A stretch of 64,000 bases of DNA from Vampirovibrionales bacterium (GCA_029262635.1 JAJCZA010000022.1:58222-122221); one strand, 5' to 3'. Counted from the stretch's first letter, positions 18,563 through 54,807 are shown. Program-made: numbers and translations. The notes: a model not told the origin generated them from the sequence alone.

Positions 18563-19267
18563 ATGATATTTAAAGGACGCGTAAGTAACGACGGCGATGG
18601 CATGATGATTGCCACCCGAGGCATGCTGGCGACGGTAAAACAAATAGAAACCCACACCACCAACATCGCTCACTTTGGCTTACCAGGGTACCAACGTAAA
18701 GAGGCGGTGGTCACATCGTTTGTTGAACACCTGGGCGCCAATGCCGTAGACGAAGTGGTCAGTACCGAGATTGGCCGTATCCGTAAAAGTAACAACCCAC
18801 TAGACTTTGCCTTACGGCACCCAGGCTACTTTCAGCATATGAACACTTCCGGCTCGATCGAGCTAACACGAGACGGCCGAATGAAGCTGGACAAAGACGG
18901 CAATCTGCTCTCGTTAGCAGGCCATAAAATTTTATCCGACGGTGGCTCGCCTATACAATTTACGTTTATCCCGAAAAATCCAGACCGGGATATTACCGTA
19001 TCCGCTGACGGCGAGATTAAAGTATTTCACGTAAAAACCCAGCAAATGGTGAACATGGGACGCATTGGCGTGGTCAGCCAAACCGGCACCATTGCCGACA
19101 AGGTAGATATTCGCCAAGGGCACGTCGAAGATTCCAACGTGTATCTGCAACAGGAATTTACCCGAGTGGTTCCCTTGCGACGCCAGTTTGAAGCCAACCG
19201 GCAAATTTTTATCACCCAAAGCGACGTCCTCTCCCGAACCATTCAGGAACTGGGACGACCTCAGTAA
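18563..19267 (+). CDS. flgF: flagellar basal-body rod protein FlgF-like
   Basis: N-terminal rod motif (TNIAHFGLPGYQRKE) and the C-terminal rod-family helix (SNVYLQQEFTRVVPLRRQFEANRQIFITQSDVLSRTI). Confidence 0.75.
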   Translation: MIFKGRVSNDGDGMMIATRGMLATVKQIETHTTNIAHFGLPGYQRKEAVVTSFVEHLGANAVDEVVSTEIGRIRKSNNPLDFALRHPGYFQHMNTSGSIELTRDGRMKLDKDGNLLSLAGHKILSDGGSPIQFTFIPKNPDRDITVSADGEIKVFHVKTQQMVNMGRIGVVSQTGTIADKVDIRQGHVEDSNVYLQQEFTRVVPLRRQFEANRQIFITQSDVLSRTIQELGRPQ

Positions 19268-19308
19268 CCTATTTAGCGTTTTAAATCTTCTGTAAGGAGA
19301 ACCCCGTT

Positions 19309-20019
19309 ATGCTACACCACATTATGAAATTTTCCGCCGACGCGGCCAATATGCAGTTTGATGTTCTGGATCGGGTCACACAAAACGTCGCGAATTTGAA
19401 CACCAATGGCTACAAAATCAAGCGATTTGATCAATACATGCGAAGCGATGGTGTGGTTAGCGGGGTTGAGCGGTTTGATTATACCCAGGGTTCCATTATG
19501 GTTACTCGCCGTCAGTTGGATGTGGCCTTAAAAGGTGAGGGGTTTATTCCCGTCACCCAACCCGACGGGCAAATTGCCTTTACCCGAGACGGTAGTTTTA
19601 CTCGAAACAGTGATGGGCTGATTATTACCAATCACGGCGATATTGTCGGCGATGGCATTCAACTGCCCGTAAACTACAAAAAAATCATCATTACAGAAAA
19701 CGGTGAAGTGAAAGTCCAACTTGATAACAAACTGGAACCGGAACAACTCGGTCAAATTAAACTGGTCAATTTTGCAAACCCGGAAGGACTGGAGTCCATT
19801 GGCCAAAATAAGCTGGTTGCCACGGAAAAATCGGGTGAAGCCGTGCCCATGACCGACGAGATGACCCAATTCAAACAAGGAGCACTGGAACGATCTAACG
19901 TCAACGTGTTTGCCCAGATTGATCAGGTCTTACGCCTAAATGCGGGACTGCTCTCTAATATGAAAATCGTGAAGTTCACAGATGACGTGTACCGACAGGC
20001 CACTAACCTGAAACAGTAA
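19309..20019 (+). CDS. flgG: flagellar distal rod protein FlgG
   Basis: NVANLNTNGYK N-terminal motif and SNVNVFAQIDQVLRLNAGLLSNMKIVKFTDDVYRQATNL C-terminal motif. Confidence 0.8.
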   Translation: MLHHIMKFSADAANMQFDVLDRVTQNVANLNTNGYKIKRFDQYMRSDGVVSGVERFDYTQGSIMVTRRQLDVALKGEGFIPVTQPDGQIAFTRDGSFTRNSDGLIITNHGDIVGDGIQLPVNYKKIIITENGEVKVQLDNKLEPEQLGQIKLVNFANPEGLESIGQNKLVATEKSGEAVPMTDEMTQFKQGALERSNVNVFAQIDQVLRLNAGLLSNMKIVKFTDDVYRQATNLKQ

Positions 20020-20051
20020 CTTGAACCCCCTATAAAAAAGAGGATAACAAC

Positions 20052-20402
20052 ATGGATCCTTTCGGAAAATTTAACCCCATCAGCAATGTACTTAATGCCA
20101 TTTCCAGTAATCAGAAACTGGTTTCTGGCAATGTTGCCAATGCCCATACACCCGGCTACACAGCTAAATCAACCACGTTTTCTCAATTGCTTTATAACCA
20201 ACACAGCCCGTTTGAAACAACGATGTCCAAGAAAATGGGTTCATCACTTCAGCCGCTGGGCACCATGGAAACCGGTGAAACGGTCAACATGAAACACGAG
20301 ATGATTACAATGCAGAAAAATATGTTGTTCTATAGCATGACCACCCGACGGGCGGCCTCAATTTTTAATATGCTCAGAACATCCAGCCAAATCGGGAGGT
20401 AA
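20052..20402 (+). CDS. flgB: flagellar proximal rod protein FlgB
   Basis: SGNVANAHTPGYTAK motif. 116 aa. Confidence 0.8.
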   Translation: MDPFGKFNPISNVLNAISSNQKLVSGNVANAHTPGYTAKSTTFSQLLYNQHSPFETTMSKKMGSSLQPLGTMETGETVNMKHEMITMQKNMLFYSMTTRRAASIFNMLRTSSQIGR

Positions 20403-20409
20403 TGGATAG

Positions 20410-20856
20410 ATGACACTTCAAAGCTCACTGGGCATAGCCGCACAAGGGCTCGACGCCGCTGGCGAACGGATGACTATCCATGCCAACAATATCGCCAACC
20501 TAACGACACCCAACTATCAACGAAAAATTCCTGTTCTCATGGAGAACAACGAAATGTCGTTTGAGAACATCATGGCACAAATGCGCAATGGCGTGATTCA
20601 AACCGGCATTAGTACGTCTCCCGGCGGGGTTCATATGGCAGGCTCCATTGCCGATAGCACGCCGGGGAAGCGAGTTTACAACCCAGGACACCCGGAAGCG
20701 GACAAAGACGGATTCGTTCAAGCCTCTAATGTCAATGTGTTAGCCGATATGTCAGATTCACTCTCCACTCAACGGGTCTACGAAGCGAATCTAGCGGTTA
20801 TTAGCATGGTAAAAGCCATGGCCAACCGGGCACTTGAAATCGGTCGAGGCCAATAA
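20410..20856 (+). CDS. flgC: flagellar proximal rod protein FlgC
   Basis: ANNIANLTTPNYQRK motif and C-terminal RVYEANLAVISMVKAMANRALEIGR. 148 aa. Confidence 0.85.
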   Translation: MTLQSSLGIAAQGLDAAGERMTIHANNIANLTTPNYQRKIPVLMENNEMSFENIMAQMRNGVIQTGISTSPGGVHMAGSIADSTPGKRVYNPGHPEADKDGFVQASNVNVLADMSDSLSTQRVYEANLAVISMVKAMANRALEIGRGQ

Positions 20857-20909
20857 GAGAGCCACTCATTTACTAACTAAAATAAAATACAAAGGAATTC
20901 CCCATCCCC

Positions 20910-21593
20910 ATGATGATTCAAGGCCCATCGCTATCTACCAGTTTTGCTCAATTAAAGGCCGGCGGCGGTATTAACGCGGTTGAAGGCCGGATGCAACAAC
21001 TGGAAATGATGATTAAAGCGGTAGAAGGGAATCGACAACAAACACCGATTTCCTTCAAGGCACAGCTTAATCAAGCTGCCCATCAACCGACTTTTACCTC
21101 AACCCTTCATGGCGTCGTTACGGATCAGATTCCCGGTGGCGCTCCAGTGCCTCCCCGATTCCCTGTCTCGTCGACTGCAACCATGTCTAAAAGCATGCGC
21201 GAGCGGATGGCTGTGTTACAGCCCCATATTACTGAATACAGTCAAAAATATGGGGTGGATAGTGCGCTGGTTAATGCGGTAATTCGACAGGAATCTGGGT
21301 TTAATCCGAATGCGGTTTCTAAAGCCGGTGCGCAAGGCCTAATGCAGTTAATGCCCGCCACAGCCAAAGGGTTGGGTGTAACGAATTCTCTGGATCCGAT
21401 CCAGAATCTGGACGGCGGTATTCGCTATCTAAAAAGCAAGCTTGATATGTACAACGGTAATGTTCCCCTGGCGCTAGCTTCCTACAACGCAGGTTCCGGT
21501 GCTGTTAAAAAATACAACGGGATTCCGCCGTATAAGGAAACTCAAAATTACGTAAAGTCAATTCTAACAGCTTACTTAAAAGAAAAAGCCTAA
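20910..21593 (+). CDS. flagellum-associated soluble lytic transglycosylase (SLT domain, SltF-like) with a roughly 110-aa N-terminal domain of unknown function
   Basis: SLT catalytic region ...IRQESGFNPNAVSKAGAQGLMQLMPATA...SYNAGSGAV (catalytic Glu in the ES motif). Sits between flgC and fliE. Confidence 0.75.
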   Translation: MMIQGPSLSTSFAQLKAGGGINAVEGRMQQLEMMIKAVEGNRQQTPISFKAQLNQAAHQPTFTSTLHGVVTDQIPGGAPVPPRFPVSSTATMSKSMRERMAVLQPHITEYSQKYGVDSALVNAVIRQESGFNPNAVSKAGAQGLMQLMPATAKGLGVTNSLDPIQNLDGGIRYLKSKLDMYNGNVPLALASYNAGSGAVKKYNGIPPYKETQNYVKSILTAYLKEKA

Positions 21594-21628
21594 AACAAGT
21601 TTAACCTCTGTAAAAAAGGACAAACATC

Positions 21629-21964
21629 ATGAATAATGGCTATATCCCCAAATTATCTCTCCCCACCCGAAACCCGGTTTCCATAAGCAATCCCATGTTT
21701 AACCCCGGAACACAGGGTGCCAATCCATTTGGCTCAGTGAATAAAACGTCGTTTAAAGATGTTATGCTCGACACGGTGGGCAAGGTTAATGATACCCTGG
21801 CAAAACCGGATACCATGATGATGGAAACCATTACCAATGGTACTCACGATGTTCACGATGTCATGTTGGCAGGAGCCAAAGCAGAGTTAACCATCACCAT
21901 TGCGGCTCAGTTAACCACTAAAGTAGTTCAGGCTTATGATCGAATTTTACAAATTCAGGTGTAG
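21629..21964 (+). CDS. fliE: flagellar hook-basal body complex protein FliE
   Basis: 111 aa. FliE-like helical sequence SFKDVMLDTVGKVNDTLAKPDTMMMETITNGTHDVHDVMLAGAKAELTITIAAQLTTKVVQAYDRILQIQV. Confidence 0.7.
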   Translation: MNNGYIPKLSLPTRNPVSISNPMFNPGTQGANPFGSVNKTSFKDVMLDTVGKVNDTLAKPDTMMMETITNGTHDVHDVMLAGAKAELTITIAAQLTTKVVQAYDRILQIQV

Positions 21965-22174: not shown

Positions 22175-23887
22175 GTGGCAAACCCCGTTCAAACTATTGT
22201 GGGACAGATCCAACAAAACCGTATGTTGGCTATTGGCTTGGCTGTAGCCGTAGTTTTGATTCTGGCGATTGGTGGTTTTATGCTCTTTTCTGGTGGTGGA
22301 AAAAGTAACGAAACCGGCGGAAAAAGCTGCAACAGACCACTGGATAAAGACCAGAAAAAGTTTGCCATGAAAGTCTCGCCTATTGGTAAAGCGGTGGAAA
22401 TACAAGCGCTTTTAGCCTCGGCCGGGATTACTCTGAATCGGGTGGACGACGATACAGGGAAAAAAGCAGATTTGAGCTTTGCGGATGGAACGACCCTTTG
22501 CCAAAGGGATACAGCCTTGATTTCTGTAGCCCAGTCGGGACTGCTTGATAAAAATATTGGACTGGAAATTTTTGAAAAAGGCGATCTAACGGCATCTCGC
22601 GAAGAAAAGCGAATTAAGCTAGTTCGGGCGCAACAGGGCGAGTTGGCCCGGCTCATTCGAAAACTAGATACCATTTCTGATGCGACGGTCAGTTTTTCCA
22701 TTCCAGAACACTCCATTTTTACCAAACAACAAAAAGCCATGTCCGTTACGGTTCAGGTCCGCACAAAAAACGGGGAACGTTTGACTCGGGATAAAGTGCG
22801 CACAGTTATTAATCTGGTAGTAGGAAGTGTTCAACAGGTAGACGCGCAACATGTGGCCTTATCCGACACCAACGGAAACACGTACAACAGTGTACTGGAC
22901 GCCTCCAGCGAATTTGGCCATAAAATGGAAGAGCGAGATCTCTACATGCGGGATAAAGTGGCCCGCCAGCTCAACCGATTAAGCGGCGTAGGCAATTACG
23001 TCGTTACCGTCAGCACCCAGCTTCGGGAAGAGGCGCAGGAAGTGATGACTCAAAGCTTTGATCCTAACGAGTCAGTGGTTTCTACACGACAGCGGTTTTC
23101 AGAAAATTTAAACGCCCGCTCCGGTAATGCTGGTTTATCCGGTGGTCCGGCGAGTGGCTTTGTACCCAACGAGCTAAAAACATCCACTTCGGGTCAAAGT
23201 TCATCGAACCGGGGCTATCGCCGGGAAGGTGAGGAAATCAGCTATGCCAACACCAAAACCCAGAAAATGGAAACCCGTATGCCAGGGATGATTGAGGATA
23301 TCTCCATTGCCGTAACTCTGGATGAAGATCATTTTCCTAAAGTGGTATTGGATACAGGCGAAAAAGTGGACATGGACACACGGGAACTCCAACGGCTAAT
23401 TGCCCGTTCGGCTAGCCCACGAGTAAACCCGAGCAACGTCAGCATTGCCCGAATCAGTTTTGGCAAAAGTTCGGCCACTCCCATTCAAAAGACTTCGGAA
23501 AACGTAGCCACCAAAGAACCTGTCGATTATATGCCTTATGCTGTCGGTGCGGTTTTGGTCATGCTGGCTTTTCTCCTATTCATGTTTCGGGGGACGTCAA
23601 AAGATCCCAAGGCAGAGCTCAATGAACAGGAGATTCAACGACTTCAAGAAGTCGCCAACCAACAGCAACAACAACTTCAGGCAACACAACAACAAACTCA
23701 ACTGCTTATGGAGGCACAACAGCAACAGTTATCCGATCCCACGACAGACAATGCAGGCAGTTTAGCTGGAGGTACTGAAGTTGGCTTACAGCAAACGCTA
23801 GGCGAAATTAAAGAGGTTATTGAGGAAGAGGAACTGGATGATGAAGAAATTGATTCGCAAATCCGAAGCTGGATTGAGTCTTCTTAA
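22175..23887 (+). CDS. fliF: flagellar MS-ring protein FliF
   Basis: 570 aa with GTG start. N-terminal TM, RBM/YscJ-like periplasmic region, second TM near the C-terminus, then an acidic C-terminal FliG-binding tail (EEEELDDEEIDSQIRSWIESS). A Gln-rich low-complexity stretch precedes the tail. Confidence 0.9.
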   Translation: MANPVQTIVGQIQQNRMLAIGLAVAVVLILAIGGFMLFSGGGKSNETGGKSCNRPLDKDQKKFAMKVSPIGKAVEIQALLASAGITLNRVDDDTGKKADLSFADGTTLCQRDTALISVAQSGLLDKNIGLEIFEKGDLTASREEKRIKLVRAQQGELARLIRKLDTISDATVSFSIPEHSIFTKQQKAMSVTVQVRTKNGERLTRDKVRTVINLVVGSVQQVDAQHVALSDTNGNTYNSVLDASSEFGHKMEERDLYMRDKVARQLNRLSGVGNYVVTVSTQLREEAQEVMTQSFDPNESVVSTRQRFSENLNARSGNAGLSGGPASGFVPNELKTSTSGQSSSNRGYRREGEEISYANTKTQKMETRMPGMIEDISIAVTLDEDHFPKVVLDTGEKVDMDTRELQRLIARSASPRVNPSNVSIARISFGKSSATPIQKTSENVATKEPVDYMPYAVGAVLVMLAFLLFMFRGTSKDPKAELNEQEIQRLQEVANQQQQQLQATQQQTQLLMEAQQQQLSDPTTDNAGSLAGGTEVGLQQTLGEIKEVIEEEELDDEEIDSQIRSWIESS

Positions 23888-24052: not shown

Positions 24053-24682
24053 ATGACCATTCACGAACTTCAGGGCGAACAACTGGCAGAAACTTGGCGT
24101 GACCGGGTTGTAAAACGAATGGAAGCAAAAGACGCTTCATCAGAAGAGATTGAAGAATCGGCGTTTATTATTTATAACCTATCCAAAGCGGTGGTTGAGT
24201 CACTTAAAAGTGAGCCCACAATCCAGTTACCAGGCCGTGCTGAAACGTTAATCCTGGATAGAGAGGAAGGGGAATTTATTCTGGAGTTGTTTGTGCGAAG
24301 TATTCTAAATATGACCAACCAACTACGGGAAGTTCAAGCCACTGTAGAAATGGACTGGGATAGCCGAAAAAATGTGCTGGAACAGGCCGCCTGGGAAGTC
24401 TTAATTCTTTCCAAGATCGTATTCGCCAGTTCTAAATTACCAGGAAAAGCTCAGATACTTTTGAAAAGCGAAGAAGACATGTTTCTGATCATGCGAAAAA
24501 GCACGGACGAAATTCTAAAACGTCATTTACCGAAAGGAGCCAGCTTAAGAAAAAAAGCAGAAATGACGCTAGCAGGCGGCACCAGTTTAACGAAATTTGA
24601 GATGGCCTCTAGAACCGCAGTCGCTTTGTACAAATCCTTTCAGGACCAATTAGGTTTATCGTCTGATGGAGGGAAAAAGTAA
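24053..24682 (+). CDS. hypothetical soluble protein in the fliF-fliH interval
   Basis: 209 aa, helical, no motif I can assign. Sits where fliG is normally found. Confidence 0.5.
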   Translation: MTIHELQGEQLAETWRDRVVKRMEAKDASSEEIEESAFIIYNLSKAVVESLKSEPTIQLPGRAETLILDREEGEFILELFVRSILNMTNQLREVQATVEMDWDSRKNVLEQAAWEVLILSKIVFASSKLPGKAQILLKSEEDMFLIMRKSTDEILKRHLPKGASLRKKAEMTLAGGTSLTKFEMASRTAVALYKSFQDQLGLSSDGGKK

Positions 24683-24685
24683 TTT

Positions 24686-25219
24686 ATGGCCGAAACGGGT
24701 CACATTGAAGGATTTTCACCAGAAAGCGTGATCTCAAAGTTGATTCAACGCTATACGGAGCGCTTGAAAAAATCGCCTCTCTCGCCTGAAGATCAAGCTG
24801 GTATTGTTGACTTAATGTCTCAATTTACCGAAATTGCGTCACAACTCATTGCCCAACAACAGGAAGATATTTTGGTTCAGGGCGAAGCCCCGCCGAAAGA
24901 AAGAAAACCTTTACCCTTTGATGGACCACGAGCCCGGCAAGCCATGTTTTTATTTTCCGATGCGGTGTATTACACGTTAATCAAATGTCATAAAATGAAA
25001 ATCCCAAAGGAACTACATATCCAGTTTTCTCAACAAGTGGCACAACAAGTCTTCGAGGAAGCTAAACGACTGATTTTAACAGTGCACTATGAACAATCGG
25101 ATATGTCGAAAAAAGATCAAATTCAATTTATGAATCAGACCGCCCTCAAGTCACTGCGTTATTTTGTGGGTGAGTATAAAAAACAGGCCGAAACGGAAAG
25201 CGGAGGTAATGTTTCATGA
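24686..25219 (+). CDS. hypothetical protein, novel domain (paralogous to the N-terminal half of the next gene)
   Basis: 177 aa. Shares collinear motifs with 25216-26364: SPEDQA...QF..IA.Q, MFLF...VYY..LK, QVF...K.L.L., QI.[FY][MV]NQTA...L.Y[FY]V.EY.K. Confidence 0.5.
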   Translation: MAETGHIEGFSPESVISKLIQRYTERLKKSPLSPEDQAGIVDLMSQFTEIASQLIAQQQEDILVQGEAPPKERKPLPFDGPRARQAMFLFSDAVYYTLIKCHKMKIPKELHIQFSQQVAQQVFEEAKRLILTVHYEQSDMSKKDQIQFMNQTALKSLRYFVGEYKKQAETESGGNVS

Positions 25220-26364
25220 CCGACGCTCCCCAGATACCACCTGTTTCTTTACAACCTATTGACGGATTTAACCCGGAACAGGTGATCCTCGAATTAGGCC
25301 AACGCTTTGAAGTCAAACTGAAAAAAGAATCTCTTTCTCCTGAGGATCAAGCTTATTTACTTGGATTCATTAACCAATTTGCCCAGATTGCTGCTCAGCA
25401 AATTCTGGAACAACGAATGATTGAAGTACCCCCCGAGGCCTCACGTGAAGGGTTCTCGTCCCTTCCTTATACCGGCGTAAGCGCAGGGCAGACCATGTTC
25501 CTTTTTTGCGAAGGGGTTTACTACGCCGTACTCAAAGGCTGGAAAATGGGTTTGCCTCAAGATTTCCATACCCAGCTAGCTGGCAGCGTTGCCCAACATG
25601 TGTTTGATACAACGAAACAACTGGTTTTGTCGACCCAGGGACAGGAACTGACGCCAGAATATCAGATTACTGAAGAACAGCAGATTGCCTATGTAAACCA
25701 AACGGCCGAAAGTGCCTTGCTTTACTATGTTAATGAGTATGAAAAGACCAATGGGCCATTTAACCCAGAGGAACGAGTCGTTGAAGAGGAGCTAGAGGCT
25801 CCTGAAATAGTAACCGATGAACCAAGGGTTGAAGCCAAGCCATTACCACCACAGCCCGTCCAATCAAACGTTCCGGCAGGAAGCCGGGAGCAACATACAA
25901 AATATGCGGCGTTGGCTTTGCTCTTAACCACATTGAAACCTAGTCAACAACAGAAAATTTTTCAGCAATTTACACCCGAAGAGCAGCAGGTTATGAATTA
26001 TTACGCCTTACCGCAAAATGTAGAGCGGGTGCTGGACATTCATCAGGTAACCGAACATCTGATGAAGCTAAAGAAGCAAATTAAAGCCGATCATACCTCC
26101 ATAGCATCCCGCTCAATGGCTAATCGAGCGATTGAGGAAATGACTCAGGTTTATCCAAAGGAAAACCTAATCGCCTATGTGAACCATGAACGGCCCAAAA
26201 TAAAAAAATATCTTGAATCATCTTTTGCAACAACGGATAAGATGGACCCCATGTCACTTTTTACTGCGACAGACGAAACTCAAAACGAAGCAAAAGACGA
26301 CCAGAGTTTGTCATCAAAAGTTGAGTCGGTTCTTCATCGCTTTCTGTCACAACAGGTGAGTTAA
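25216..26364 (+). CDS. two-domain hypothetical protein: N-terminal copy of the novel domain plus a C-terminal region resembling the FliG N-terminal / MgtE-N helical domain
   Basis: The N-terminal 190 aa parallel the previous ORF. The C-terminal segment AALALLLTTLKPSQQQKIFQQFTPEEQQVMNYYAL resembles the FliG-N start (AAILL.SLGPE.AA.V.K.L..EE...L). No FliG middle or C-terminal torque motifs are present. Confidence 0.5.
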   Translation: MTDAPQIPPVSLQPIDGFNPEQVILELGQRFEVKLKKESLSPEDQAYLLGFINQFAQIAAQQILEQRMIEVPPEASREGFSSLPYTGVSAGQTMFLFCEGVYYAVLKGWKMGLPQDFHTQLAGSVAQHVFDTTKQLVLSTQGQELTPEYQITEEQQIAYVNQTAESALLYYVNEYEKTNGPFNPEERVVEEELEAPEIVTDEPRVEAKPLPPQPVQSNVPAGSREQHTKYAALALLLTTLKPSQQQKIFQQFTPEEQQVMNYYALPQNVERVLDIHQVTEHLMKLKKQIKADHTSIASRSMANRAIEEMTQVYPKENLIAYVNHERPKIKKYLESSFATTDKMDPMSLFTATDETQNEAKDDQSLSSKVESVLHRFLSQQVS

Positions 26365-26389: not shown

Positions 26390-27094
26390 ATGATCATTAA
26401 ACGAAACAAAGCCAATCAAACCCAGTCCTCTAACCTCTCTAGCGACGGGAAAAATGCCAGTGAAACGGACCAGAGCCAGTCTCTTAACTGGACTCAGGAT
26501 AATCTGGAAAAAGGATTGGTTCAGGAGCGTCGCATGGGGCCCCGTGAAAATCGCCGAGACGGGTTTCGACGATTGGAAGATAAGAACTTAATCAGCCGGG
26601 CTCACGAAGAGGCCAACGCCATTCGGGAAAACGCTAAACGGGAAGGCTTTGAAGAAGGGTTAGACGAAGCACAGGAAGAAATTCAGCACTTAAAAAAGGT
26701 TTTGGAAGAACTCATGATTTCCCGTGAAACCGTGCTGGAGTCAGTGGTCGATGATATTGCCCCCATTGCGGTCGAAATTGCCGAACGAATTATCAAGACC
26801 GAAGTGGCGTGCGACGATGAGTTGATTATGGGCATTGTCAACGACACCCTGCAAAAAGTTAGCCGAAAAACAAAAAGTATTTTGATTAAGATTCATCCAG
26901 AAGATGTATCTCTGGTCAAAGAAAATTTAAAAGCCAATCCAATCCCTAATATGGATGCTGAAATTATGGTCATGGATGATCCGGTCGTGGATCGAGGAAG
27001 CTGCATTGTAGAGACCAACAGCGGCCTCATTGACGCGTCGTTTTCAACCCGAATAGAAATTTTGAAGAAACTGTTTGGCACGAACTCACCCTGA
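26390..27094 (+). CDS. fliH: flagellar export ATPase regulator FliH-like (FliH/SctL family)
   Basis: Central charged coiled coil (ISRAHEEANAIRENAKREGFEEGLDEAQEEIQHLKK) followed by a FliH C-terminal-like domain. Located immediately before flhA. Confidence 0.6.
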   Translation: MIIKRNKANQTQSSNLSSDGKNASETDQSQSLNWTQDNLEKGLVQERRMGPRENRRDGFRRLEDKNLISRAHEEANAIRENAKREGFEEGLDEAQEEIQHLKKVLEELMISRETVLESVVDDIAPIAVEIAERIIKTEVACDDELIMGIVNDTLQKVSRKTKSILIKIHPEDVSLVKENLKANPIPNMDAEIMVMDDPVVDRGSCIVETNSGLIDASFSTRIEILKKLFGTNSP

Positions 27095-27256
27095 AAAAAT
27101 AAAATTAAGAAAAGCAACCCTGAATTGAGACTCAATTCAAATACTATTTAAAGCAGATGTTTTTTTAAAAGAAGTAAGACAAAATAAAACGTAAGAGAAC
27201 GTGATTGGGTTTAACGGGTTTTAAAAAACCCAGAGAAAGAAACAAAAGGAGAGTCG

Positions 27257-29383
27257 GTGGCACACCCTCAGGCACCACAACAGCAACAAGGCGGCGGACA
27301 AGCCTTTTCCATGCCGCCTCTAACAGAAGTCCTTCTGGCGTTTCTGGTTCTTGGACTTGTCCTGATTATTATTATGCCGCTTCCGGCCTGGATGATTGAC
27401 GGCATTATCTCCATGAACGTGTCTCTTGGCATCATCCTCCTAATGATGTCCCTCTACGTCGAGAAAGCACTGGATATGGCAGCATTTCCCTCGATTATTG
27501 TTGTCGGCACCATGATGCGGCTAGCCTTAGGGATTGCCACCACCCGATCCATTTTAGCCAACGGCATGGCTGGGGACATGGTCGAGGCCTTCGGGAACTT
27601 CGTAACCGGAGGAAACCTGATTGTCGGGGCGGTGGTCTTTATCATCATTACCATTGTTCAGTTTATGGTAATTACCAAGGGTTCCGAGCGTATCGCAGAA
27701 GTTGGCGCCCGATTTGCCCTGGACGCTATGCCGGGAAAGCAAATGACTATTGATGCGGATTTTAACTCTGGGCTGATTTCTCCAGAAGAAGCCATTAAAC
27801 GACGAGAAGACCTCCAACGAGAATCCGCTCTCTACGGCTCCATGGATGGTGCCATGAAATTCGTCAAAGGAGATTCCATTGCCGGTATTATCATTACCAT
27901 CATCAACATTATTGGTGGGTTAAGCATCGGAATGGGCATGAAAGAACTAGCCTTTGACGAGGCCATTAGCAAATATACACTATTAACCATCGGAGATGGT
28001 TTGGCCGCCCAGATTCCCGCTCTGCTGATGGCCATTGCGTCCGGTTTGATGATGACCCGTTCTACGGCATCTGGCACCAGTTTGGGTAAAGACCTTTTTG
28101 AACAGGTTCAAAGCAAGCCTTATGGTTTGATTTTCTCCGCGATTTTTCTCGCCGTCATTGTCGCAACAGCAAGCTATACTGGTTTAGCCTGGTGGGCGTT
28201 TTTAATTGTTGTTTTCATTCTTGTCGGGATTGCTTTTAGTGTGTTTCTCGCCACAGACGTTCAGCAACAATTGGGCCAATTAGAACAAACCAAACAGAAC
28301 ATGTCGGAACTGATTAACCCGAACCGAATGTATGAAAAGCTAGGCGTCGACGTCTTAAGTCTTCAGGTCGGTAATGATCTGCTGAGAATCGCTGACCCTG
28401 AGCAAGAGGGCCAACTACTGGGTAAAATTGCCGGATTACGCTCTCGCCTAACCGACGAGCTTGGTTTTATTCTCCCCAACGTCCGAATTATGGACAGCTT
28501 GAGTTTGGGCCCTCAAGAGTACTTAATTTCCATCCGGAATAACCCGGTAGCCACAGGAAACGTCTATCCTGATCGGTATATGATTACCAGCGCTCTATTT
28601 GAGTCGGTTGGCCTCCAGCCCCCAGAGGGTGCGATGCGAGATAAAGACCCGACTTATGGCACTGACGCTTACTGGTTACTGCCCGATGAAATTCCGACCG
28701 AACTCCAGGATAGAGCGATTGAAGCGACAGATGCCATTATCGCCCACCTGGCCGAAGTGGTTATTAAGTATGTGGATGATGTGATGACAAAAATGGACGT
28801 ACTGAAGCTAATGGAGCTGGTACGTCAGCAGGATCAGTCTCTGGTTCAGGAATTGGTTCCCTCCATTGTAACGCCCAACGACTTGCGTAAGATTTTCGTT
28901 AACCTGATTCAGGAAAAAGTCTCTATTAAAGATATTATGTTTGTTTTTGAACGCTTGAGCGACTATGCCCGCTTTAGCAAAGAGCCTGATGTCCTTTCTG
29001 AACGGCTCCGGGCGGCATTAGGCCGACAAATCTGCTTGAACAATTCAGAAAATAAAACCATGTACGCCGTCACCCTATCCAATGACTGGGAAAAAATGCT
29101 CGATGACAGTTGTCAGCGAACCGAGCTAGGCACCATGTTCCTGCTAAATCCACTTCAGGTTCAGGAACTGATTGAAACGACCGCAGAAACACTGCGTTCC
29201 GTTCAGGACTCTTATAACCGGATGCCCGTCGTCCTTTGCTCGCCCCGAATCCGATTGCCATTATATCAATTACTGGATCGTCATATTCCCATGGTGGTCG
29301 TCATGTCTTATAGCGAACTAATTCCAGAAATTCAAGTGCAAGCCGTTGGAGCCATTGGCGGCGGTGGCATGGATGACCTATAA
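27257..29383 (+). CDS. flhA: flagellar export gate protein FlhA (FlhA/SctV family)
   Basis: 708 aa. Conserved FHIPEP region (ITKGSERIAEVGARFALDAMPGKQMTIDAD, FVKGDSIAGIIITIINIIGG) and a cytoplasmic C-terminal domain. Confidence 0.95.
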   Translation: MAHPQAPQQQQGGGQAFSMPPLTEVLLAFLVLGLVLIIIMPLPAWMIDGIISMNVSLGIILLMMSLYVEKALDMAAFPSIIVVGTMMRLALGIATTRSILANGMAGDMVEAFGNFVTGGNLIVGAVVFIIITIVQFMVITKGSERIAEVGARFALDAMPGKQMTIDADFNSGLISPEEAIKRREDLQRESALYGSMDGAMKFVKGDSIAGIIITIINIIGGLSIGMGMKELAFDEAISKYTLLTIGDGLAAQIPALLMAIASGLMMTRSTASGTSLGKDLFEQVQSKPYGLIFSAIFLAVIVATASYTGLAWWAFLIVVFILVGIAFSVFLATDVQQQLGQLEQTKQNMSELINPNRMYEKLGVDVLSLQVGNDLLRIADPEQEGQLLGKIAGLRSRLTDELGFILPNVRIMDSLSLGPQEYLISIRNNPVATGNVYPDRYMITSALFESVGLQPPEGAMRDKDPTYGTDAYWLLPDEIPTELQDRAIEATDAIIAHLAEVVIKYVDDVMTKMDVLKLMELVRQQDQSLVQELVPSIVTPNDLRKIFVNLIQEKVSIKDIMFVFERLSDYARFSKEPDVLSERLRAALGRQICLNNSENKTMYAVTLSNDWEKMLDDSCQRTELGTMFLLNPLQVQELIETTAETLRSVQDSYNRMPVVLCSPRIRLPLYQLLDRHIPMVVVMSYSELIPEIQVQAVGAIGGGGMDDL

Positions 29384-29418: not shown

Positions 29419-30093
29419 ATGCTTCACTATACAGCTTGTCTGGCTAGTTCCTTTGATGGAAAAATTGCGCCAGCTCATACGCATCAATATGTCCGGATTG
29501 GTTCGGACAGGGATATTTCCCATTTAATCCGGTTACGAGGGGAGTTTGACGCCCTTCTTATGGGTGGTTCTACGTTTCGAGCCTATCCCAAGCGGCATAA
29601 AAGCGAAGAAGGTTCTCATCGGCCGATTCATGCGATTCTAACCCGAGGGGGCGACAATATATTAGCGGCTCTACCCCCAGAATCCCCGCTTTTTAAAGAA
29701 CAATCATCTGATCAAGCTGTCCCCATAGTCGTGTTTGCCCAGCGATGCCCCTCCATCGACCAACAGGCCAAATATCCCGATTCAATCCAGTGGGTTGAGA
29801 CTGGTGAAACGGCCCTCCAGCAATTGAACATTATTGATCAAACCTTGCACGAGATGGGGTGTTCTAATGGATTAGTCGAAGGCGGCGGACAAATAATGGC
29901 ACTGTTTTTAGAAGCAAAGGCATTGAGAGAGATGTACTTAACCCTGTGCCCTTTATTTCTGGGTGGACAAGATGCCCCTAATCTACTTTCCGGTACCGAA
30001 TTTCAATTAAAAGACGCCCCTCGCATGGAGCTTATGGAAGTGAGCCAACAGGGCCACGAATTGTTTTTACGGGTAACGTTTCAGTACACCTGA
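29419..30093 (+). CDS. RibD C-terminal domain / dihydrofolate-reductase-like reductase family protein
   Basis: LMGGSTF and LVEGGGQIMALFLE are Rossmann-like motifs typical of the RibD_C/DHFR-like family. Confidence 0.65.
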   Translation: MLHYTACLASSFDGKIAPAHTHQYVRIGSDRDISHLIRLRGEFDALLMGGSTFRAYPKRHKSEEGSHRPIHAILTRGGDNILAALPPESPLFKEQSSDQAVPIVVFAQRCPSIDQQAKYPDSIQWVETGETALQQLNIIDQTLHEMGCSNGLVEGGGQIMALFLEAKALREMYLTLCPLFLGGQDAPNLLSGTEFQLKDAPRMELMEVSQQGHELFLRVTFQYT

Positions 30094-30108: not shown

Positions 30109-30810
30109 TTAACCACCAGTAATTTTTCCGCTGGCCGCATCAACAGTGGAAGCGCTTAAGTCGGTTTTGTACTCCGGATCAATCAGAATATTTAAAACAA
30201 TTTCTTTTTGAGTATCTAGAGGATTTAATTCAAAACCAATTCGATGTTCATACGTTTTCCAGTTGTATAAAATATGCTTAATGATTCCTGGAAAATCATA
30301 TTCCTTATCTTTATGTGTTGCGGTCAATGTATATTCACGATCTTGGGTCATTGCGAGGATTGGATGTTCGGATTTAAATAAAAGTCCCAATCCTTGAGTT
30401 GTTGCATTTTCAGCGGAAAATTCTTGTTGATCGCCATGGCGAAGCTCAAAAGAAGCCGGTTTTCGCTCTATTGATCTCAAATTTTTATGAAGCTTTCGTT
30501 GAATCGGAGTGCAAAGGTGAACCGTACTTCCATCTCCTTCATAAACAACATGTTTTAAAACTTGAACCGAGGCTGTTTCGTATAACCCTTCCGATTCCAG
30601 GTCATTGTCGCCATCTTTTTTTACTTTCATGTTTTCAGGAAAAATATAAATTCTAGAACCAATCGGTAAAACCGTATCACCCCGACGTTTTACACCAACA
30701 TAAATACGGAATTCCGTATCGCTAACATCTTCCACCTCGACATGGCAGTGAACACAGATATTGGACTTAATTTGAAATTTAGCGCGAAGCGTTCGCATTT
30801 TTAGACTCAT
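30109..30810 (-). CDS. hypothetical protein (weak PilZ-like features at the N-terminus)
   Basis: RTLRAKF ... DVSDTEF could be a degenerate RxxxR / DxSxxG pair, but the GG is missing. Otherwise no assignment. Confidence 0.35.
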   Translation of the reverse strand: MSLKMRTLRAKFQIKSNICVHCHVEVEDVSDTEFRIYVGVKRRGDTVLPIGSRIYIFPENMKVKKDGDNDLESEGLYETASVQVLKHVVYEGDGSTVHLCTPIQRKLHKNLRSIERKPASFELRHGDQQEFSAENATTQGLGLLFKSEHPILAMTQDREYTLTATHKDKEYDFPGIIKHILYNWKTYEHRIGFELNPLDTQKEIVLNILIDPEYKTDLSASTVDAASGKITGG

Positions 30811-38577: not shown

Positions 38578-39237
38578 CTAGGGTAGAAGAAAGTAAATCG
38601 ATATATTCAGGACCATTTTTAACATTGGAGGGCGCTTCGGTGTTCTCTCTTTAAGGGGGGTAATAGAAACACCGTCAATGGCCATCAGCTCCTCGGATTG
38701 AGCAACTTGATGAACCACGTGGGCCAAGTCAGAGTAGGAACCGGTTAAAATCAACTGGAAAGGGTGGCGGGATAAACGAACCGGCGCATGAGAAAAAGGG
38801 AGCCGGTCAAGGGTTTCAGTTTTTACCGGGCGCTTCTGGATCGGAGTGGGGAGGTTCAAGCGAGAAAGGCTAATTTGCCGAATTATTTTCAAAGCGCTTT
38901 GGTCAAGAGGCTGGTTATTAAAACGCTTCGGAAATCGAACTGGAAAATAAACCGTTTCGACTAATTGGTTCTGGATGGTTATGAAGGCTTTTTTCTTATG
39001 AGACAAAGTCTGTCGTTCTATAAACAAGGTTTTATCCAGTACTGTTACCTTATCCAAAGCCGGTTGGATCAGAAAAAACCAGCCTCCCACAATAAAAAGA
39101 AGAAACACTAAGAATAAACCAAGCATCCGGGGTTCAAAACAAACCTTCAGAATGACTTTCTTAAACCCTTCGCCACTGCTTTCGCCTACCCGTGGAGGCA
39201 ATTCAAAAAAACGAATCAGCCATGTCCTTATCATCAA
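38578..39237 (-). CDS. PilO/GspM-like bitopic membrane protein
   Basis: Single TM (LGLFLVFLLFIVGGWFFLI) then a periplasmic helical and ferredoxin-like region. Coupled to the upstream PilM-PilN fusion by a 4-nt overlap. Confidence 0.45.
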   Translation of the reverse strand: MMIRTWLIRFFELPPRVGESSGEGFKKVILKVCFEPRMLGLFLVFLLFIVGGWFFLIQPALDKVTVLDKTLFIERQTLSHKKKAFITIQNQLVETVYFPVRFPKRFNNQPLDQSALKIIRQISLSRLNLPTPIQKRPVKTETLDRLPFSHAPVRLSRHPFQLILTGSYSDLAHVVHQVAQSEELMAIDGVSITPLKERTPKRPPMLKMVLNISIYFLLP

Positions 39238-53776: not shown

Positions 53777-54778
53777 CTACCCATTGTACAGCAAGACAGC
53801 CGTGGTACATAGCAGGGCCTGAAAAAAAATAAAACTGCCGACCACCCGATTTTCGCTCCAGCCACACAGCTCAAAATGATGATGAATGGGACTCATTTTA
53901 AAAATCCGTTTGCCGGTCAGTTTAAATGAAGCCACCTGAAGAATAACTGACAGGGCTTCGATTAAAAACACAGCCCCAATCAGAATAAGCCAAACCTCTG
54001 ACTGGGACAAAACGGCCATAGTGCCAAGGGCTCCGCCAAGGGCTAAACTACCCGTATCTCCCATGAAGATCTTAGCCGGACGCATATTGAAAAAGAAAAA
54101 GGCAAGCAAGGCGCCGGTTAAAACAATGCAAAAGTTGGCTAAGTCAGGATATGATGGGGCGTGGGTTGGATCCTGATATCCGCCACTAAAGATTAATGCG
54201 AACGCTAATAGAGAAATAATCGCGGTTCCCCCTGCCAGCCCATCAAGCCCGTCGGTTAAATTAACCGCATTCGAGGTACCCGTGACGATAAACATCGAAA
54301 AAACAGGATAAAGCCAGCCCAATTCTAACGCACCCCAATTAAAAACAGCGATTTGTGTAACCGGGAAGGCCGCCATCATATAGAACCCAACGCCAAGTCC
54401 ACAGAGCGCCTGAATCAACAATTTAGCGTAACCCGAAAGGCCCTTGTTCTGTTTTTTTGCAATTTTTAGATAGTCATCCAGAAATCCGAGTCCCGCCAAA
54501 AGGAGCGTTACACCCAATGTAATCCCGTACTCTGTGGAAAGCAGACTATTACCATCAAGCCACGAAATGACCGGAACACCCATAAGAACACCGATGATAA
54601 CGATAACGCCGCCAGACGTTGGGGTCCCTTCTTTGGCTTGATGATGTTGAGGGCCATCTTCTCGGATATATTGGCCCATCATTTTCCGTTTTAAAAACCA
54701 AATATATAGCGGCATTAGCACCATGACAACCAGAAAAGGGATCAAACCCATTAATGCGTAGTGGATACGAAGATCCAT
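53777..54778 (-). CDS. mraY: phospho-N-acetylmuramoyl-pentapeptide transferase
   Basis: Start placed at the internal ATG (MDLRIHYALMGLIP...). The 75-codon upstream extension in the ORF track overlaps murF and has no MraY homology. Conserved NAVNLTDGLDGL and MGDTGSLALGG motifs. Confidence 0.9.
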   Translation of the reverse strand: MDLRIHYALMGLIPFLVVMVLMPLYIWFLKRKMMGQYIREDGPQHHQAKEGTPTSGGVIVIIGVLMGVPVISWLDGNSLLSTEYGITLGVTLLLAGLGFLDDYLKIAKKQNKGLSGYAKLLIQALCGLGVGFYMMAAFPVTQIAVFNWGALELGWLYPVFSMFIVTGTSNAVNLTDGLDGLAGGTAIISLLAFALIFSGGYQDPTHAPSYPDLANFCIVLTGALLAFFFFNMRPAKIFMGDTGSLALGGALGTMAVLSQSEVWLILIGAVFLIEALSVILQVASFKLTGKRIFKMSPIHHHFELCGWSENRVVGSFIFFQALLCTTAVLLYNG

Positions 54779-54807
54779 GGTATGTTTTGTCCTTTTTCTT
54801 CTATGTT

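What the first reader, a model, noticed from the sequence alone, without database searches (positions are those of the whole stretch)
24053..26364. Three uncharacterised genes occupy the fliG slot between fliF and fliH, including a duplicated novel domain and a FliG-N-like tail
In almost all flagellar loci fliF is followed directly by fliG, whose N-terminal domain binds the acidic FliF C-terminus. That tail is present here.

Instead there are three ORFs of 209, 177 and 382 aa. The 177-aa protein and the first 190 aa of the 382-aa protein are clear paralogs, with collinear motifs SPEDQA, MFLF..VYY, QVF and NQTA...Y[FY]V.EY.K, and I do not recognise the domain.

The last 160 aa of the 382-aa protein start with a segment (AALALLLTTLKPSQQQKIFQQFTPEEQQVM) that looks like the start of the FliG N-terminal / MgtE-N helical domain. 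No ORF in the window carries FliG middle or C-terminal torque motifs.

This could be a lineage-specific re-engineering of the MS-ring/C-ring interface, or a set of export-apparatus accessory proteins. Either would be undescribed.
Basis: partly seen in the sequence, partly recalled or inferred. Interest (0 to 1): 0.8.

Follow-up and report, generated by a model that had tools for sequence, protein, structure and literature searches.

The report
FliG substitute in second flagellar cluster
In a flagellum-like gene cluster of a non-photosynthetic relative of cyanobacteria, the rotor protein FliG is replaced by a conserved protein that keeps only a FliG-like ring-binding module, fused to a new helical domain that occurs three times here, which points to a flagellum-derived machine that is probably not an ordinary motor.

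Summary
Three intact, tightly packed ORFs (209, 177 and 382 aa) lie between fliF and fliH. The 177-aa protein and the N-terminal half of the 382-aa protein are 42% identical. The 209-aa protein is a third, older paralog of the same helical domain ("D"). D has no Pfam match and no specific match to a solved structure.

The C-terminal domain of the 382-aa protein ("Y") belongs to the FliG/MgtE_N superfamily. This rests on family-wide Pfam hits, profile-profile alignment, a PDB profile search and fold search. Each test is weak to moderate alone, but they agree. No FliG C-terminal torque domain exists anywhere in the 64 kb.

Y is the conserved core. It sits in the fliF–fliH slot in every related locus fetched, all from Melainabacteria (Vampirovibrionales and a low-GC group). 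About 170 cluster representatives were found.

Published gene tables show that Vampirovibrio chlorellavorus has this cluster plus a separate canonical fliF-fliG-fliH cluster. Non-flagellated gut Melainabacteria appear to keep this cluster without FliG, FliM, FliN, MotAB or filament genes.

Best reading: Y anchors to the FliF tail, and D domains build a new cytoplasmic platform of a non-rotary, flagellum-derived export apparatus. I found no description of it.

The parts
18563..21964 (+). Upstream part of the same cluster: flgF (18563-19267), flgG (19309-20019), flgB (20052-20402), flgC (20410-20856), an SLT lytic transglycosylase (20910-21593) and fliE (21629-21964).
   Evidence: ORF list. Pfam SLT 1e-33 and FliE 1e-15. 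Precomputed Pfam LlgE_F_G_D1 and Flg_bbr_C on the identical contig. The same gene order occurs in L001, L003, L007, L010 and L012.
22175..23887 (+). fliF (MS-ring protein, 570 aa), a divergent 'set-B' type.
   Evidence: Pfam YscJ_FliF 1e-28 and YscJ_FliF_C 3e-13. TIGR00206 fliF scores 95 bits, below its 129.75 cut-off, but aligns to model position 552 of 555, that is through the C-terminal tail. At least 120 ortholog clusters at 42-55% identity are named Vampirovibrio, Vampirovibrionales or Melainabacteria.
23783..23884 (+). FliF C-terminal acidic/amphipathic tail (...LQQTLGEIKEVIEEEELDDEEIDSQIRSWIESS), the presumed docking peptide for the FliG-like domain of Y.
   Evidence: The tail is conserved in four aligned orthologs. 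The last 8 residues are IKSWIESS or a near variant in about 100 of 120 ortholog clusters. Salmonella FliF ends ALVIRQWMSNDHE (6scn_A), sharing the [IV][KR]xW[IM] core. Binding itself is inferred, not tested.
24053..24682 (+). X: 209-aa stand-alone D-domain protein (D domain about residues 1-156, followed by a poorly conserved tail). It is an ancient paralog of the Y N-domain.
   Evidence: hhalign of X family against Y family: 97.5%, E=7e-12. D-HMM 5.6e-15. Positional orthologs in L001, L003, L005, L007 and L010. No Pfam or NCBIfam hit.
24686..25219 (+). D2: 177-aa stand-alone D-domain protein, a duplicate of the Y N-domain specific to this sublineage.
   Evidence: 42% identity to Y residues 15-177, E=7e-39. 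Its nearest relatives are the N-domains of P0001 and P0002. The sister genome L014 has an upstream ORF ending ...LLYFVGEYTK...* that overlaps the Y start. D2 is absent from L001, L003, L005, L007, L010, L011 and L012.
25258..25770 (+). Y residues 15-185: the D domain, a bundle of five long helices with a short hairpin.
25771..25881 (+). Y residues 186-222: proline- and acid-rich disordered linker, variable in length between homologs.
   Evidence: pLDDT below 50 for residues 187-217. The region is gap-rich and variable in alignment A1. It is much shorter in the roughly 320-aa Y' group.
25882..26238 (+). Y residues 223-341: FliG/MgtE_N-superfamily domain (KYAALALLLTTLKPSQQQKIFQQFTPEEQQ...), containing the near-invariant ERP motif (residues 325-327, nt 26188-26196).
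   Evidence: Pfam scans of 102 family members: MgtE_N 27 members, FliG_M 20, FliG_N 17 (best E 3e-6); every other family shown 3 or fewer. hmmsearch of the family profile against the PDB: top hit of 177,635 sequences is full-length FliG 3hjl_A, E=0.01. hhalign against FliG_N: 76-80%, P about 2e-5; against full FliG: 74%, P=2.8e-5, with ERP aligned on EHPQ. Reversed-template controls give P>=0.0075. Foldseek of the domain model: 10 of 21 hits, including ranks 1-4, are FliG, but none is significant alone.
26299..26361 (+). Y residues 362-382: conserved C-terminal amphipathic helix (LSSKVESVLHRFLSQQVS; family consensus LPPKVEAALxRYLxQKVS), after a disordered stretch. Its partner is unknown.
   Evidence: Helix 367-381 in both models. 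Conserved in alignments A1, A3 and A5.
26390..29383 (+). fliH (26390-27094) and flhA (27257-29383), the downstream members of the operon.
   Evidence: Pfam FliH 2e-24. FHIPEP is recorded on the identical contig. fliF-(X)-Y-fliH-flhA order is conserved in all related loci.

Best explanation
The locus is the core of a second, paralogous flagellar-type basal-body cluster ('set B') that is characteristic of Melainabacteria. In it, the gene in the fliG position encodes Y, a FliG derivative.

Y keeps a FliG_N-like armadillo-type module, possibly extending into the first helices of FliG_M with an E-R-P motif where FliG has EHPQ. Y lacks the FliG C-terminal torque domain. It carries a new N-terminal five-helix domain (D) on a flexible proline-rich linker.

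Proposed mechanism:
1. The FliG-like module co-folds with the invariant FliF C-terminal helix (...LDxQIKSWIESS), as FliG_N does with FliF_C. This places one Y per FliF under the MS ring.
2. The tethered D domains, together with the free D-domain paralogs X and (in this genome) D2, pack into a cytoplasmic ring or platform. This platform takes the place of FliG_MC, FliM and FliN.
3. The platform positions FliH, and through it the export ATPase, next to the FlhA ring.
4. The apparatus exports rod-type substrates and does not generate torque.

Shown here: gene order, paralogy, conservation, FliG-superfamily membership of the C-domain, and absence of FliG_C. Inferred: binding of Y to the FliF tail, D-D assembly, FliH docking and non-rotary function.
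For: Position and operon structure: X, D2, Y and fliH are separated by 3, -4 and 25 nt. Y lies between fliF and fliH in every related locus: L001, L003, L005, L007, L010, L011, L012 and L013. D and Y-C HMMs hit nothing else in the window or in the flanks.

FliG-superfamily C-domain:
- Pfam scans of members gave MgtE_N 27, FliG_M 20 and FliG_N 17 of 102 members, best E 3e-6, with every other family shown at 3 or fewer.
- The top PDB sequence hit is full-length FliG 3hjl, E=0.01.
- hhalign gave P about 2e-5, against P>=0.0075 for reversed controls.
- Foldseek ranks 1-4 are FliG chains, including a FliGn:FliFc complex.

Partner peptide: the FliF extreme C-terminus is almost invariant across about 120 ortholog clusters and shares [IV][KR]xW[IM] with Salmonella FliF.

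D as a modular, self-associating unit: the locus holds 1, 2 or 3 D-domain ORFs depending on lineage. There is a split D | FliG-like form (L013), many stand-alone Y-C-only and D-only proteins, and D-D tandem fusions.

No torque domain: there is no FliG_M or FliG_C in the 64 kb.

Non-rotary reading, from the literature:
- V. chlorellavorus has this cluster type plus a separate canonical fliF-fliG-fliH-fliI cluster with fliM, fliN and motAB (PMC4451040 Table S3). L010 from a Vampirovibrio sp. confirms the match, including the extra gene between flgB and flgC.
- The 13 flagellar genes shared by all four first Melainabacteria genomes are this cluster. One of those genomes (MEL.A1) lacks filament, cap, junction and L/P rings (PMC3787301).
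- Four non-flagellated Gastranaerophilales keep FlgB/C/F/G, FliE, FlhA, FlhB, FliI, FliJ, FliP and FliR. No FliG, FliM, FliN, MotA, MotB, FlgE, FliC or FliD is listed for them. FliE and FlhA are four gene numbers apart, as expected for fliE-fliF-Y-fliH-flhA (PMC4040986 supplement).
Against: - No single test of the FliG relationship is decisive for the window protein itself. Pfam FliG_N scores 14 bits against a 25-bit cut-off, Foldseek E-values are 0.8-9, and hhalign probability is 74-80%.
- Whether the domain descends from FliG_N or FliG_M cannot be settled, because these repeats are homologous to each other.
- Binding to FliF, D-D assembly and FliH docking are untested. No complex prediction could be run.
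- The absence of motor genes comes from published tables of draft genomes that used automatic annotation. The same tables fail to list FliF and FliH, so divergent FliM or Mot proteins could also have been missed.
- V. chlorellavorus has two motAB pairs and a second fliK-flgD-flgE set. A rotating second organelle is therefore not excluded in Vampirovibrionales.
- I could not examine the rest of the genome that this window comes from.
Confidence: 0.45

Rival explanations
1. X, D2 and Y form a working but unconventional rotor. The D domain has functionally replaced FliG_M/C and interacts with a dedicated stator (a second MotAB pair). Set B would then be a second, rotating flagellum with a new torque-generating interface.
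For: V. chlorellavorus lists two motB-motA pairs, a second fliK-flgD-flgE set, a second fliPQR with fliO and a spoA (FliN-like) gene, in addition to the canonical set. L012 has fliI, a FliK-like gene and a hook-like gene directly downstream of flhA. Y keeps an E-R-P motif aligned with the FliM-binding EHPQ of FliG_M.
Against: No FliG_C-like domain or torque-helix signature was found in X, D2, Y or the window. Published tables list the cluster in genomes for which no MotA, MotB, FliM, FliN, hook or filament genes are given. Only one polar flagellum has been described for V. chlorellavorus (PMC4451040). D is a bundle of long helices unlike FliG_MC.
Confidence: 0.15
2. The D-domain proteins are substrate-specific export chaperones or gate-accessory factors (functionally like FliS, FliT or FlgN). 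Y tethers them at the MS ring near FlhA. They would not be structural ring components.
For: The D domain is a helical bundle of about 160-180 aa. The genes are adjacent to, and apparently co-transcribed with, fliH and flhA. The copy number varies between lineages, as might be expected for accessory factors. fliS and fliT lie close to the cluster in L005.
Against: No Pfam, NCBIfam, PDB-sequence or fold match to FliS, FliT, FlgN or any chaperone was found. One D copy is almost always covalently fused to the FliG-like anchor. That gives a stoichiometry tied to FliF and fits a structural role better. The fold searches list only the best 50-60 matches, so a weak chaperone-like similarity is not strictly excluded.
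Confidence: 0.2
3. The cluster is a decaying remnant of a flagellar system. The three ORFs would be degenerate fragments of fliG with no function.
For: Earlier papers treated the partial flagellar gene sets of gut Melainabacteria as the result of loss. The sequences are too diverged for standard FliG models.
Against: All ORFs are intact and tightly packed. About 170 representatives at 50% identity share the same two-domain architecture and motifs. The D domain folds confidently. The FliF tail is nearly invariant. D2 is retained in a sister genome whose Y is 58-59% identical. D does not align to any part of FliG.
Confidence: 0.03

Closest known systems
FliG, the flagellar rotor/switch protein (Pfam FliG_N PF14842, FliG_M PF14841, FliG_C PF01706)
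   Same: Y is encoded directly after fliF and before fliH. It has an armadillo-like helical module with the FliG_N-type start (K-x-A-A-L-x-L-L-L...L....Q..I/L...F/L...E) that aligns to FliG residues about 11-154. Its presumed partner is a conserved FliF C-terminal helix with the same [IV][KR]xW[IM] core.
   Different: The FliG-like module is at the C-terminus, not the N-terminus. There is no FliG_C torque domain and no complete FliG_M. A 170-aa unrelated helical domain and a Pro-rich linker precede the module. Free paralogs of the new domain are encoded alongside. Standard FliG models do not reach their thresholds on the window protein.
SctK (with the SctD cytoplasmic domain) of injectisome type III secretion systems
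   Same: SctK is a helical, roughly 200-aa protein encoded between the FliF homolog (sctJ) and the FliH homolog (sctL). It occupies the position that FliG has in flagella and links the membrane ring to the sorting platform in a non-rotating, flagellum-related machine (from general knowledge of injectisomes). X is a 209-aa helical protein in the equivalent slot.
   Different: No sequence or fold match to SctK appeared among the matches listed. The cluster has flagellar rod genes (flgB, C, F, G and fliE) and a full-length FliF rather than SctJ/SctD, and there is no secretin or needle gene in the window. Anchoring here would be through a FliG_N-like module on the FliF tail, which injectisomes lack.
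MgtE N-terminal domain (PF03448; the same superfamily as FliG domains)
   Same: It is the most frequent weak Pfam match across the Y family (27 of 102 members). MgtE 2yvy appears in the PDB profile search at E=1.6.
   Different: There is no CBS or transporter domain. The genomic context is purely flagellar. The match probably reflects the shared repeat fold rather than a functional link.
Secondary (dual) flagellar systems, such as the lateral/polar systems of Vibrio and Aeromonas or fla1/fla2 of Rhodobacter (from general knowledge)
   Same: A second full set of basal-body and export-gate genes is present in one genome, as listed for V. chlorellavorus.
   Different: Known secondary systems each carry their own canonical FliG, FliM and FliN. 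Here the FliG slot holds Y, and the system appears to persist without motor genes in some lineages.
Flagellar basal bodies kept without motility in Buchnera (from general knowledge)
   Same: Retention of a flagellar export and basal-body gene set in non-motile bacteria, proposed to act as a protein exporter.
   Different: Buchnera keeps canonical fliG, fliM and fliN. The Melainabacteria cluster has a remodelled FliG-slot protein and a new domain family.

Membership tests
FliG (canonical rotor protein) | FliG_N domain recognised by the Pfam model at its gathering score | tested here: not met
   The window protein scores 14.1 bits, E=0.074, against a cut-off of 25 bits. 17 of 102 family members give weak FliG_N hits, best E 3e-6.
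FliG (canonical rotor protein) | FliG_M domain with the EHPQR FliM-binding motif | tested here: inconclusive
   The near-invariant E325-R326(-P327) aligns on EHPQ of Salmonella FliG in hhalign (74% probability). 20 of 102 members give weak FliG_M hits. Only about 40 residues follow the motif before a disordered stretch, so a full ARM_M is unlikely.
FliG (canonical rotor protein) | FliG_C domain with the charged torque helix that contacts MotA | tested here: not met
   No FliG_C was found in X, D2 or Y, and only 3 of 102 members give a weak hit. hhalign of D against FliG_MC gives P=0.065. tblastn and HMM searches found none in the window.
FliG (canonical rotor protein) | Gene located immediately downstream of fliF and upstream of fliH | tested here: met
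FliG (canonical rotor protein) | N-terminal domain binds and co-folds with the FliF C-terminal peptide | not testable with these tools
   Only single-chain prediction was available. Indirect support comes from the conserved FliF tail and from a FliGn:FliFc complex (5tdy) among the top fold matches.
FliG/MgtE_N superfamily (armadillo-like helical repeat) | Profile and fold similarity to members of the superfamily, above other families | tested here: met
   The three superfamily models are the only Pfam families hit by more than 3 of 102 members among those shown. FliG 3hjl is the top PDB profile hit at E=0.01. hhalign gives P about 2e-5 against reversed controls of >=0.0075. Foldseek ranks 1-4 are FliG. 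This holds at family level. For the window protein alone the signals are sub-threshold.
Flagellar-type type III export/basal-body cluster | FliF, FliH, FlhA, FliE and rod proteins FlgB/C/F/G encoded together | tested here: met
Flagellar motor (rotary organelle) | Dedicated stator (MotAB) and switch proteins (FliM, FliN) belonging to the same system | not testable with these tools
   None lies in the 64-kb window or in 10 kb beyond either end. The rest of the genome could not be searched. Published tables list none in non-flagellated relatives that keep the cluster.
Injectisome SctK | Sequence or fold similarity to SctK, together with injectisome genes (secretin, needle, SctD) | tested here: not met
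Flagellar export chaperones (FliS, FliT, FlgN) | Match to the Pfam or NCBIfam models, or to their four-helix folds | tested here: not met
   No such hits at E<=1, and none in the fold-search lists.

The most novel reading that the evidence does not exclude
Melainabacteria, from predatory Vampirovibrio to gut Gastranaerophilales, carry an independently evolved, non-rotary secretion machine derived from the flagellum. In it FliG has been cut down to its FliF-binding module and fused to a new domain family (D). The free and tethered D copies would form a previously unknown type of cytoplasmic sorting platform. This would be a second, independent route from flagellum to secretion system, parallel to the origin of the injectisome, where FliG was also lost and SctK took its slot.
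Probability: 0.3. Interest if true: 0.85.

Novelty: new variant of a known kind. Interest (0 to 1): 0.68.

Why it matters
FliG is one of the most universal flagellar proteins. It links the MS ring, the switch complex and the stator. Here a conserved, widely distributed basal-body cluster retains the FliF-binding end of FliG. It discards the torque domain and adds a new, multiplied helical domain.

This gives a natural dissection of the MS-ring/C-ring interface. It also gives a concrete candidate for how a flagellar export apparatus can be converted into something that is not a motor.

It reinterprets the "partial flagellar gene sets" long noted in gut Melainabacteria as a maintained system rather than debris. 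It also defines two new protein families (the D domain, and the D plus FliG-like fusion) that current annotation leaves as hypothetical proteins.

The question is directly testable by complex prediction, cryo-tomography of Vampirovibrio and phyletic profiling.

Tried and rejected
1. Single-protein Pfam and NCBIfam scans of the three ORFs gave only sub-threshold noise apart from FliG_N.
2. Word-indexed homolog searches found only 6 Y homologs and no X homolog. Exhaustive HMM search and synteny were needed.
3. Small Y profiles against PDB sequences gave no FliG hit, only a designed armadillo protein. The 102-sequence profile was needed.
5. hhalign of D against FliG_N, FliG_MC and full FliG gave nothing.
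6. The FliF-tail profile against the PDB gave no FliF_C peptide hit. The canonical tail was confirmed separately.
7. A search for domain fusions that might reveal D's function found only D-D tandems, longer linkers and one low-complexity false positive.
8. Looking for other flagellar genes in the window and 10 kb beyond each end found none.
9. The promoter/terminator scan around the operon was at chance level.
10. The metagenome scan returned one short, redundant locus. The A6 alignment was too diverse for that tool.
11. Literature searches for a description of a FliG substitute or a second flagellar system in Melainabacteria found none. The flagella sheet of the Di Rienzi supplement is truncated in the held copy.
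12. I could not determine whether the genome of this window has a canonical fliG.
Full report
**What is at the coordinates**

The + strand between 18.5 and 29.4 kb carries one flagellar-type cluster:
- flgF, flgG, flgB, flgC
- an SLT transglycosylase
- fliE
- fliF (22175-23887)
- three ORFs of 209 aa (X, 24053-24682), 177 aa (D2, 24686-25219) and 382 aa (Y, 25216-26364)
- fliH (26390-27094) and flhA (27257-29383)

X, D2, Y and fliH are separated by 3, -4 and 25 nt, so they are very probably co-translated from one transcript. None of the three ORFs matches any Pfam or NCBIfam model at threshold.

**Paralogy**

D2 and Y residues 15-177 are 42% identical over 164 aa (E=7e-39). The 209-aa ORF carries the same domain in a more diverged form:
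- Profile-profile comparison of the X family with the Y family gives 97.5% probability, E=7e-12 over 152 columns.
- An HMM built only from Y N-domains hits X at 5.6e-15.
- BLASTP of X hits the N-domain of one Y homolog at 1.8e-13.

The window therefore encodes three copies of one domain, which I call D.

**Structure**

An AlphaFold2 model of Y (7-sequence alignment, mean pLDDT 73) has these parts:
- a confident N-terminal bundle of five long helices, residues 20-180, pLDDT about 77-93
- a disordered Pro-rich linker, residues 187-217
- a second domain of eight short helices, residues 224-340
- a disordered stretch, then a terminal helix at 367-381

**Is the C-terminal domain FliG-like?**

For the window protein alone the signal is weak: Pfam FliG_N E=0.074, residues 232-259. 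Several independent family-level tests agree.

1. I collected the family with an exhaustive HMM search of 1.84 billion representatives. It returned 172 hits at E<=1e-3, 74 of them at E<=1e-30. I then scanned 102 full-length members one by one against Pfam. MgtE_N was hit by 27 members, FliG_M by 20 and FliG_N by 17 (best E 3e-6). No other family shown was hit by more than 3.
2. The 102-sequence profile searched against all 177,635 distinct PDB sequences has full-length FliG of Aquifex (3hjl_A) as its top hit, E=0.01. MgtE (2yvy) also appears.
3. I ran hhalign of the Y C-domain alignment (100 sequences) against FliG sequences recovered from PDB entries. Against FliG_N it gives 76-80% probability, P=1.4-2.2e-5. 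Against full FliG it gives 74%, P=2.8e-5, covering FliG residues 11-154. Reversed-template controls give P>=0.0075.
4. A separate model of Y residues 218-382 (pLDDT 70) has only 21 Foldseek matches in the PDB at E<=10. Ten of them are FliG chains, including ranks 1-4, and these include the FliGn:FliFc complex 5tdy. None is individually significant.

In the hhalign alignment, the only nearly invariant residues of the whole family (E325, R326, followed by P) fall on the EHPQ motif of FliG_M. This is a lead, not a proof. FliG_N, FliG_M and MgtE_N are mutually homologous repeats, so which one is the ancestor cannot be decided.

The D domain shows no similarity to any part of FliG (P>=0.065). There is no FliG_C in the three ORFs or anywhere in the window.

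**The FliF tail**

The last 34 residues of FliF (...LQQTLGEIKEVIEEEELDDEEIDSQIRSWIESS) are conserved in aligned orthologs. Among 120 FliF ortholog clusters, the last eight residues are IKSWIESS or a near variant in about 100. Salmonella FliF ends ALVIRQWMSNDHE (6scn_A), which shares the [IV][KR]xW[IM] core. The TIGR00206 fliF model aligns to within three positions of its end. Such conservation of an extreme C-terminus implies a conserved partner. The FliG-like module of Y is the obvious candidate, but binding was not tested.

**Distribution and architecture**

Related loci carry the same order, fliE-fliF-(X)-Y-fliH-flhA.

| Locus or protein | Source | Genes between fliF and fliH |
|---|---|---|
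| window (= L004) | this contig | X + D2 + Y |
| L001/L006 | Vampirovibrionales MAG, JBDIVN010000015 | X + Y |
| L003, L005 | ENA metagenomes | X + Y |
| L007 | MAG labelled Coleofasciculaceae | X + Y |
| L010 | Vampirovibrio sp., GCA_041737375.1 | X + Y |
| L011 | FliF 42% identical | Y only |
| L012 | low-GC "Y'" group, 322 aa, short linker | Y' only |
| L013 | ENA metagenome | separate D and FliG-like ORFs with ATGA overlap |
| P0192, P0227, P0240 | representative proteins | tandem D-D fusions |

- In L012, fliI, a FliK-like gene and a hook-like gene follow flhA.
- Many stand-alone D-only and FliG-like-only proteins also exist.
- D2 occurs only in this sublineage. Its nearest relatives are the N-domains of P0001 and P0002.
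- In the sister genome (Y 58-59% identical), the ORF upstream of Y ends ...LLYFVGEYTK...* and overlaps the Y start. D2 is therefore maintained, not a one-off.
- The D and Y-C HMMs hit nothing else in the window or in any flank.

Record titles of homologs place all of this in Melainabacteria (Vampirovibrionales).

**This is a second system**

The gene table of Vampirovibrio chlorellavorus (PMC4451040 Table S3) lists two sets of core genes.
- The canonical set is flgB-flgC-fliE-fliF-fliG-fliH-fliI, fliN-fliM-fliL-motB-motA, fliPQR-flhB-flhA, and the L/P-ring and junction genes.
- The second set has flgF-flgG-flgB-(gene)-flgC-(gene)-fliE-fliF and fliH-flhA. This is the window's order. L010 shows the extra gene between flgB and flgC is an RDD-domain gene, and the other is the SLT gene.
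- Only one fliG and one fliM are listed. A canonical fliG elsewhere in the present genome is therefore likely, but I could not test it.

In Di Rienzi et al. 2013 (PMC3787301), 13 flagellar genes are shared by all four first Melainabacteria genomes. Eight lie on one ACD20 scaffold: G0015 and G0016 flgG, G0018 flgC, G0021 fliF, [G0022 unnamed], G0023 fliH, G0024 flhA, G0025 fliI and G0028 flgE. This is the L012 architecture, with the unnamed gene in the Y slot. The shared set includes MEL.A1, which lacks filament, cap, junction and L/P rings.

In Soo et al. 2014 (PMC4040986 supplementary table), four non-flagellated Gastranaerophilales keep FlgB/C/F/G, FliE, FlhA, FlhB, FliI, FliJ, FliP and FliR. 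No FliG, FliM, FliN, MotA, MotB, FlgD, FlgE, FlgH/I, FliC, FliD or FlgK/L is listed for them. FliE and FlhA are four gene numbers apart in three of those genomes, as expected for fliE-fliF-Y-fliH-flhA with the three middle genes unrecognised. This last step is my inference from gene numbering, and automatic annotation of draft genomes can miss diverged genes.

**Mechanism proposed**

Y is a FliG derivative reduced to the MS-ring-binding module. That module docks on the FliF tail. The D domain, on a flexible linker, together with the free D paralogs (X everywhere in Vampirovibrionales, plus D2 here), forms the cytoplasmic structure that replaces FliG_MC, FliM and FliN. This structure positions FliH and the ATPase at the FlhA ring. 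Because the torque domain is missing, and because the cluster appears to persist without stator, switch and filament genes, the apparatus is more likely an exporter than a motor.

- Shown: synteny, paralogy, conservation, FliG-superfamily membership, absence of FliG_C.
- Inferred: all protein-protein contacts and the non-rotary function.

Rivals:
- an unconventional rotor using a second MotAB pair (V. chlorellavorus has two)
- tethered export chaperones
- a decaying remnant, which the conservation data contradict

**Comparison with known systems**

The closest family is FliG, but two of its defining features fail or are unclear. The C-domain test is not met, and the M-domain test is inconclusive. 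Y should therefore not be filed as FliG, only as a member of the FliG/MgtE_N superfamily.

Functionally, the nearest analogy is SctK in injectisomes: a helical protein in the same gene slot of a non-rotating, flagellum-related machine. There is no sequence or fold support for homology with SctK.

I found no paper describing the D domain, the Y architecture or a FliG-less second flagellar cluster in Melainabacteria. Earlier work treats these genes as partial flagellar sets.

**Verdict**

I rate this a new variant of a known kind of system, carrying two new protein families. Interest is 0.68. The main uncertainty is functional (exporter or motor) and could be resolved by complex prediction, phyletic profiling and tomography.

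Noticed in passing
window 23651-23726 (FliF residues about 493-517): A glutamine-rich helix (QQQQQLQATQQQTQLLMEAQQQQ) lies between the second transmembrane segment and the acidic tail of FliF. It is almost invariant in four orthologs that are otherwise about 45% identical in this region. This is unusual conservation for a low-complexity stretch. It may be a coiled-coil spacer or an interaction site.
   Followed up: partly
window 29419-30093 (+): A RibD_C-domain (dihydrofolate-reductase-like) gene follows flhA directly, or with one gene between, in the window, L001, L003 and L010 (on the opposite strand in L010). The linkage to the flagellar-type cluster is conserved and unexplained.
   Followed up: no
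window 30109-30810 (-): A 233-aa ORF with no Pfam hit even at E<=0.5. By eye it has RxxxR (RSIER) and N-x-T-x-x-G (NATTQG) motifs reminiscent of PilZ c-di-GMP receptors, next to the flagellar-type cluster. The resemblance is unverified.
   Followed up: partly
window 20910-21593 (+): The rod operon carries a stand-alone SLT lytic transglycosylase with a 100-aa N-terminal extension between flgC and fliE, in the place where a FlgJ-type rod-cap/muramidase might be expected. It is conserved in L001, L010 and L012.
   Followed up: no
L010 7667-8191: In Vampirovibrio sp., an RDD-domain membrane protein gene is inserted between flgB and flgC of the same cluster. This matches the unannotated gene number in the V. 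chlorellavorus table. It is absent from the window.
   Followed up: no
L013 1-992; proteins P0192, P0227, P0240: Natural variants of the family exist. In L013 the D domain and the FliG-like domain are separate ORFs with an ATGA overlap (it could also be an assembly frameshift). The three proteins are 400-490 aa with two tandem D domains and no FliG-like domain.
   Followed up: partly
window 38578-40757 (-) and 61871-63841 (+): A weak PilO/T2SS-M-like ORF (E=0.004) sits next to a 507-aa ORF with no family, possibly type IV pilus assembly genes. Separately, a T2SSE/PilT-like ATPase gene is followed by a tyrosine recombinase gene.
   Followed up: no
L005 6841-8672 (-): In one relative, fliS and fliT, an unannotated 326-aa gene and a Fic-domain gene lie just downstream of flhA of this cluster. 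This may link filament-type chaperones to set B in that lineage.
   Followed up: no
window 53777-55003 and 54808-56250 (-): The mechanical ORF for the MraY-like glycosyltransferase overlaps the upstream Mur ligase ORF by about 200 nt. The gene call on the identical contig is shorter (333 aa), so the true start is probably internal.
   Followed up: no
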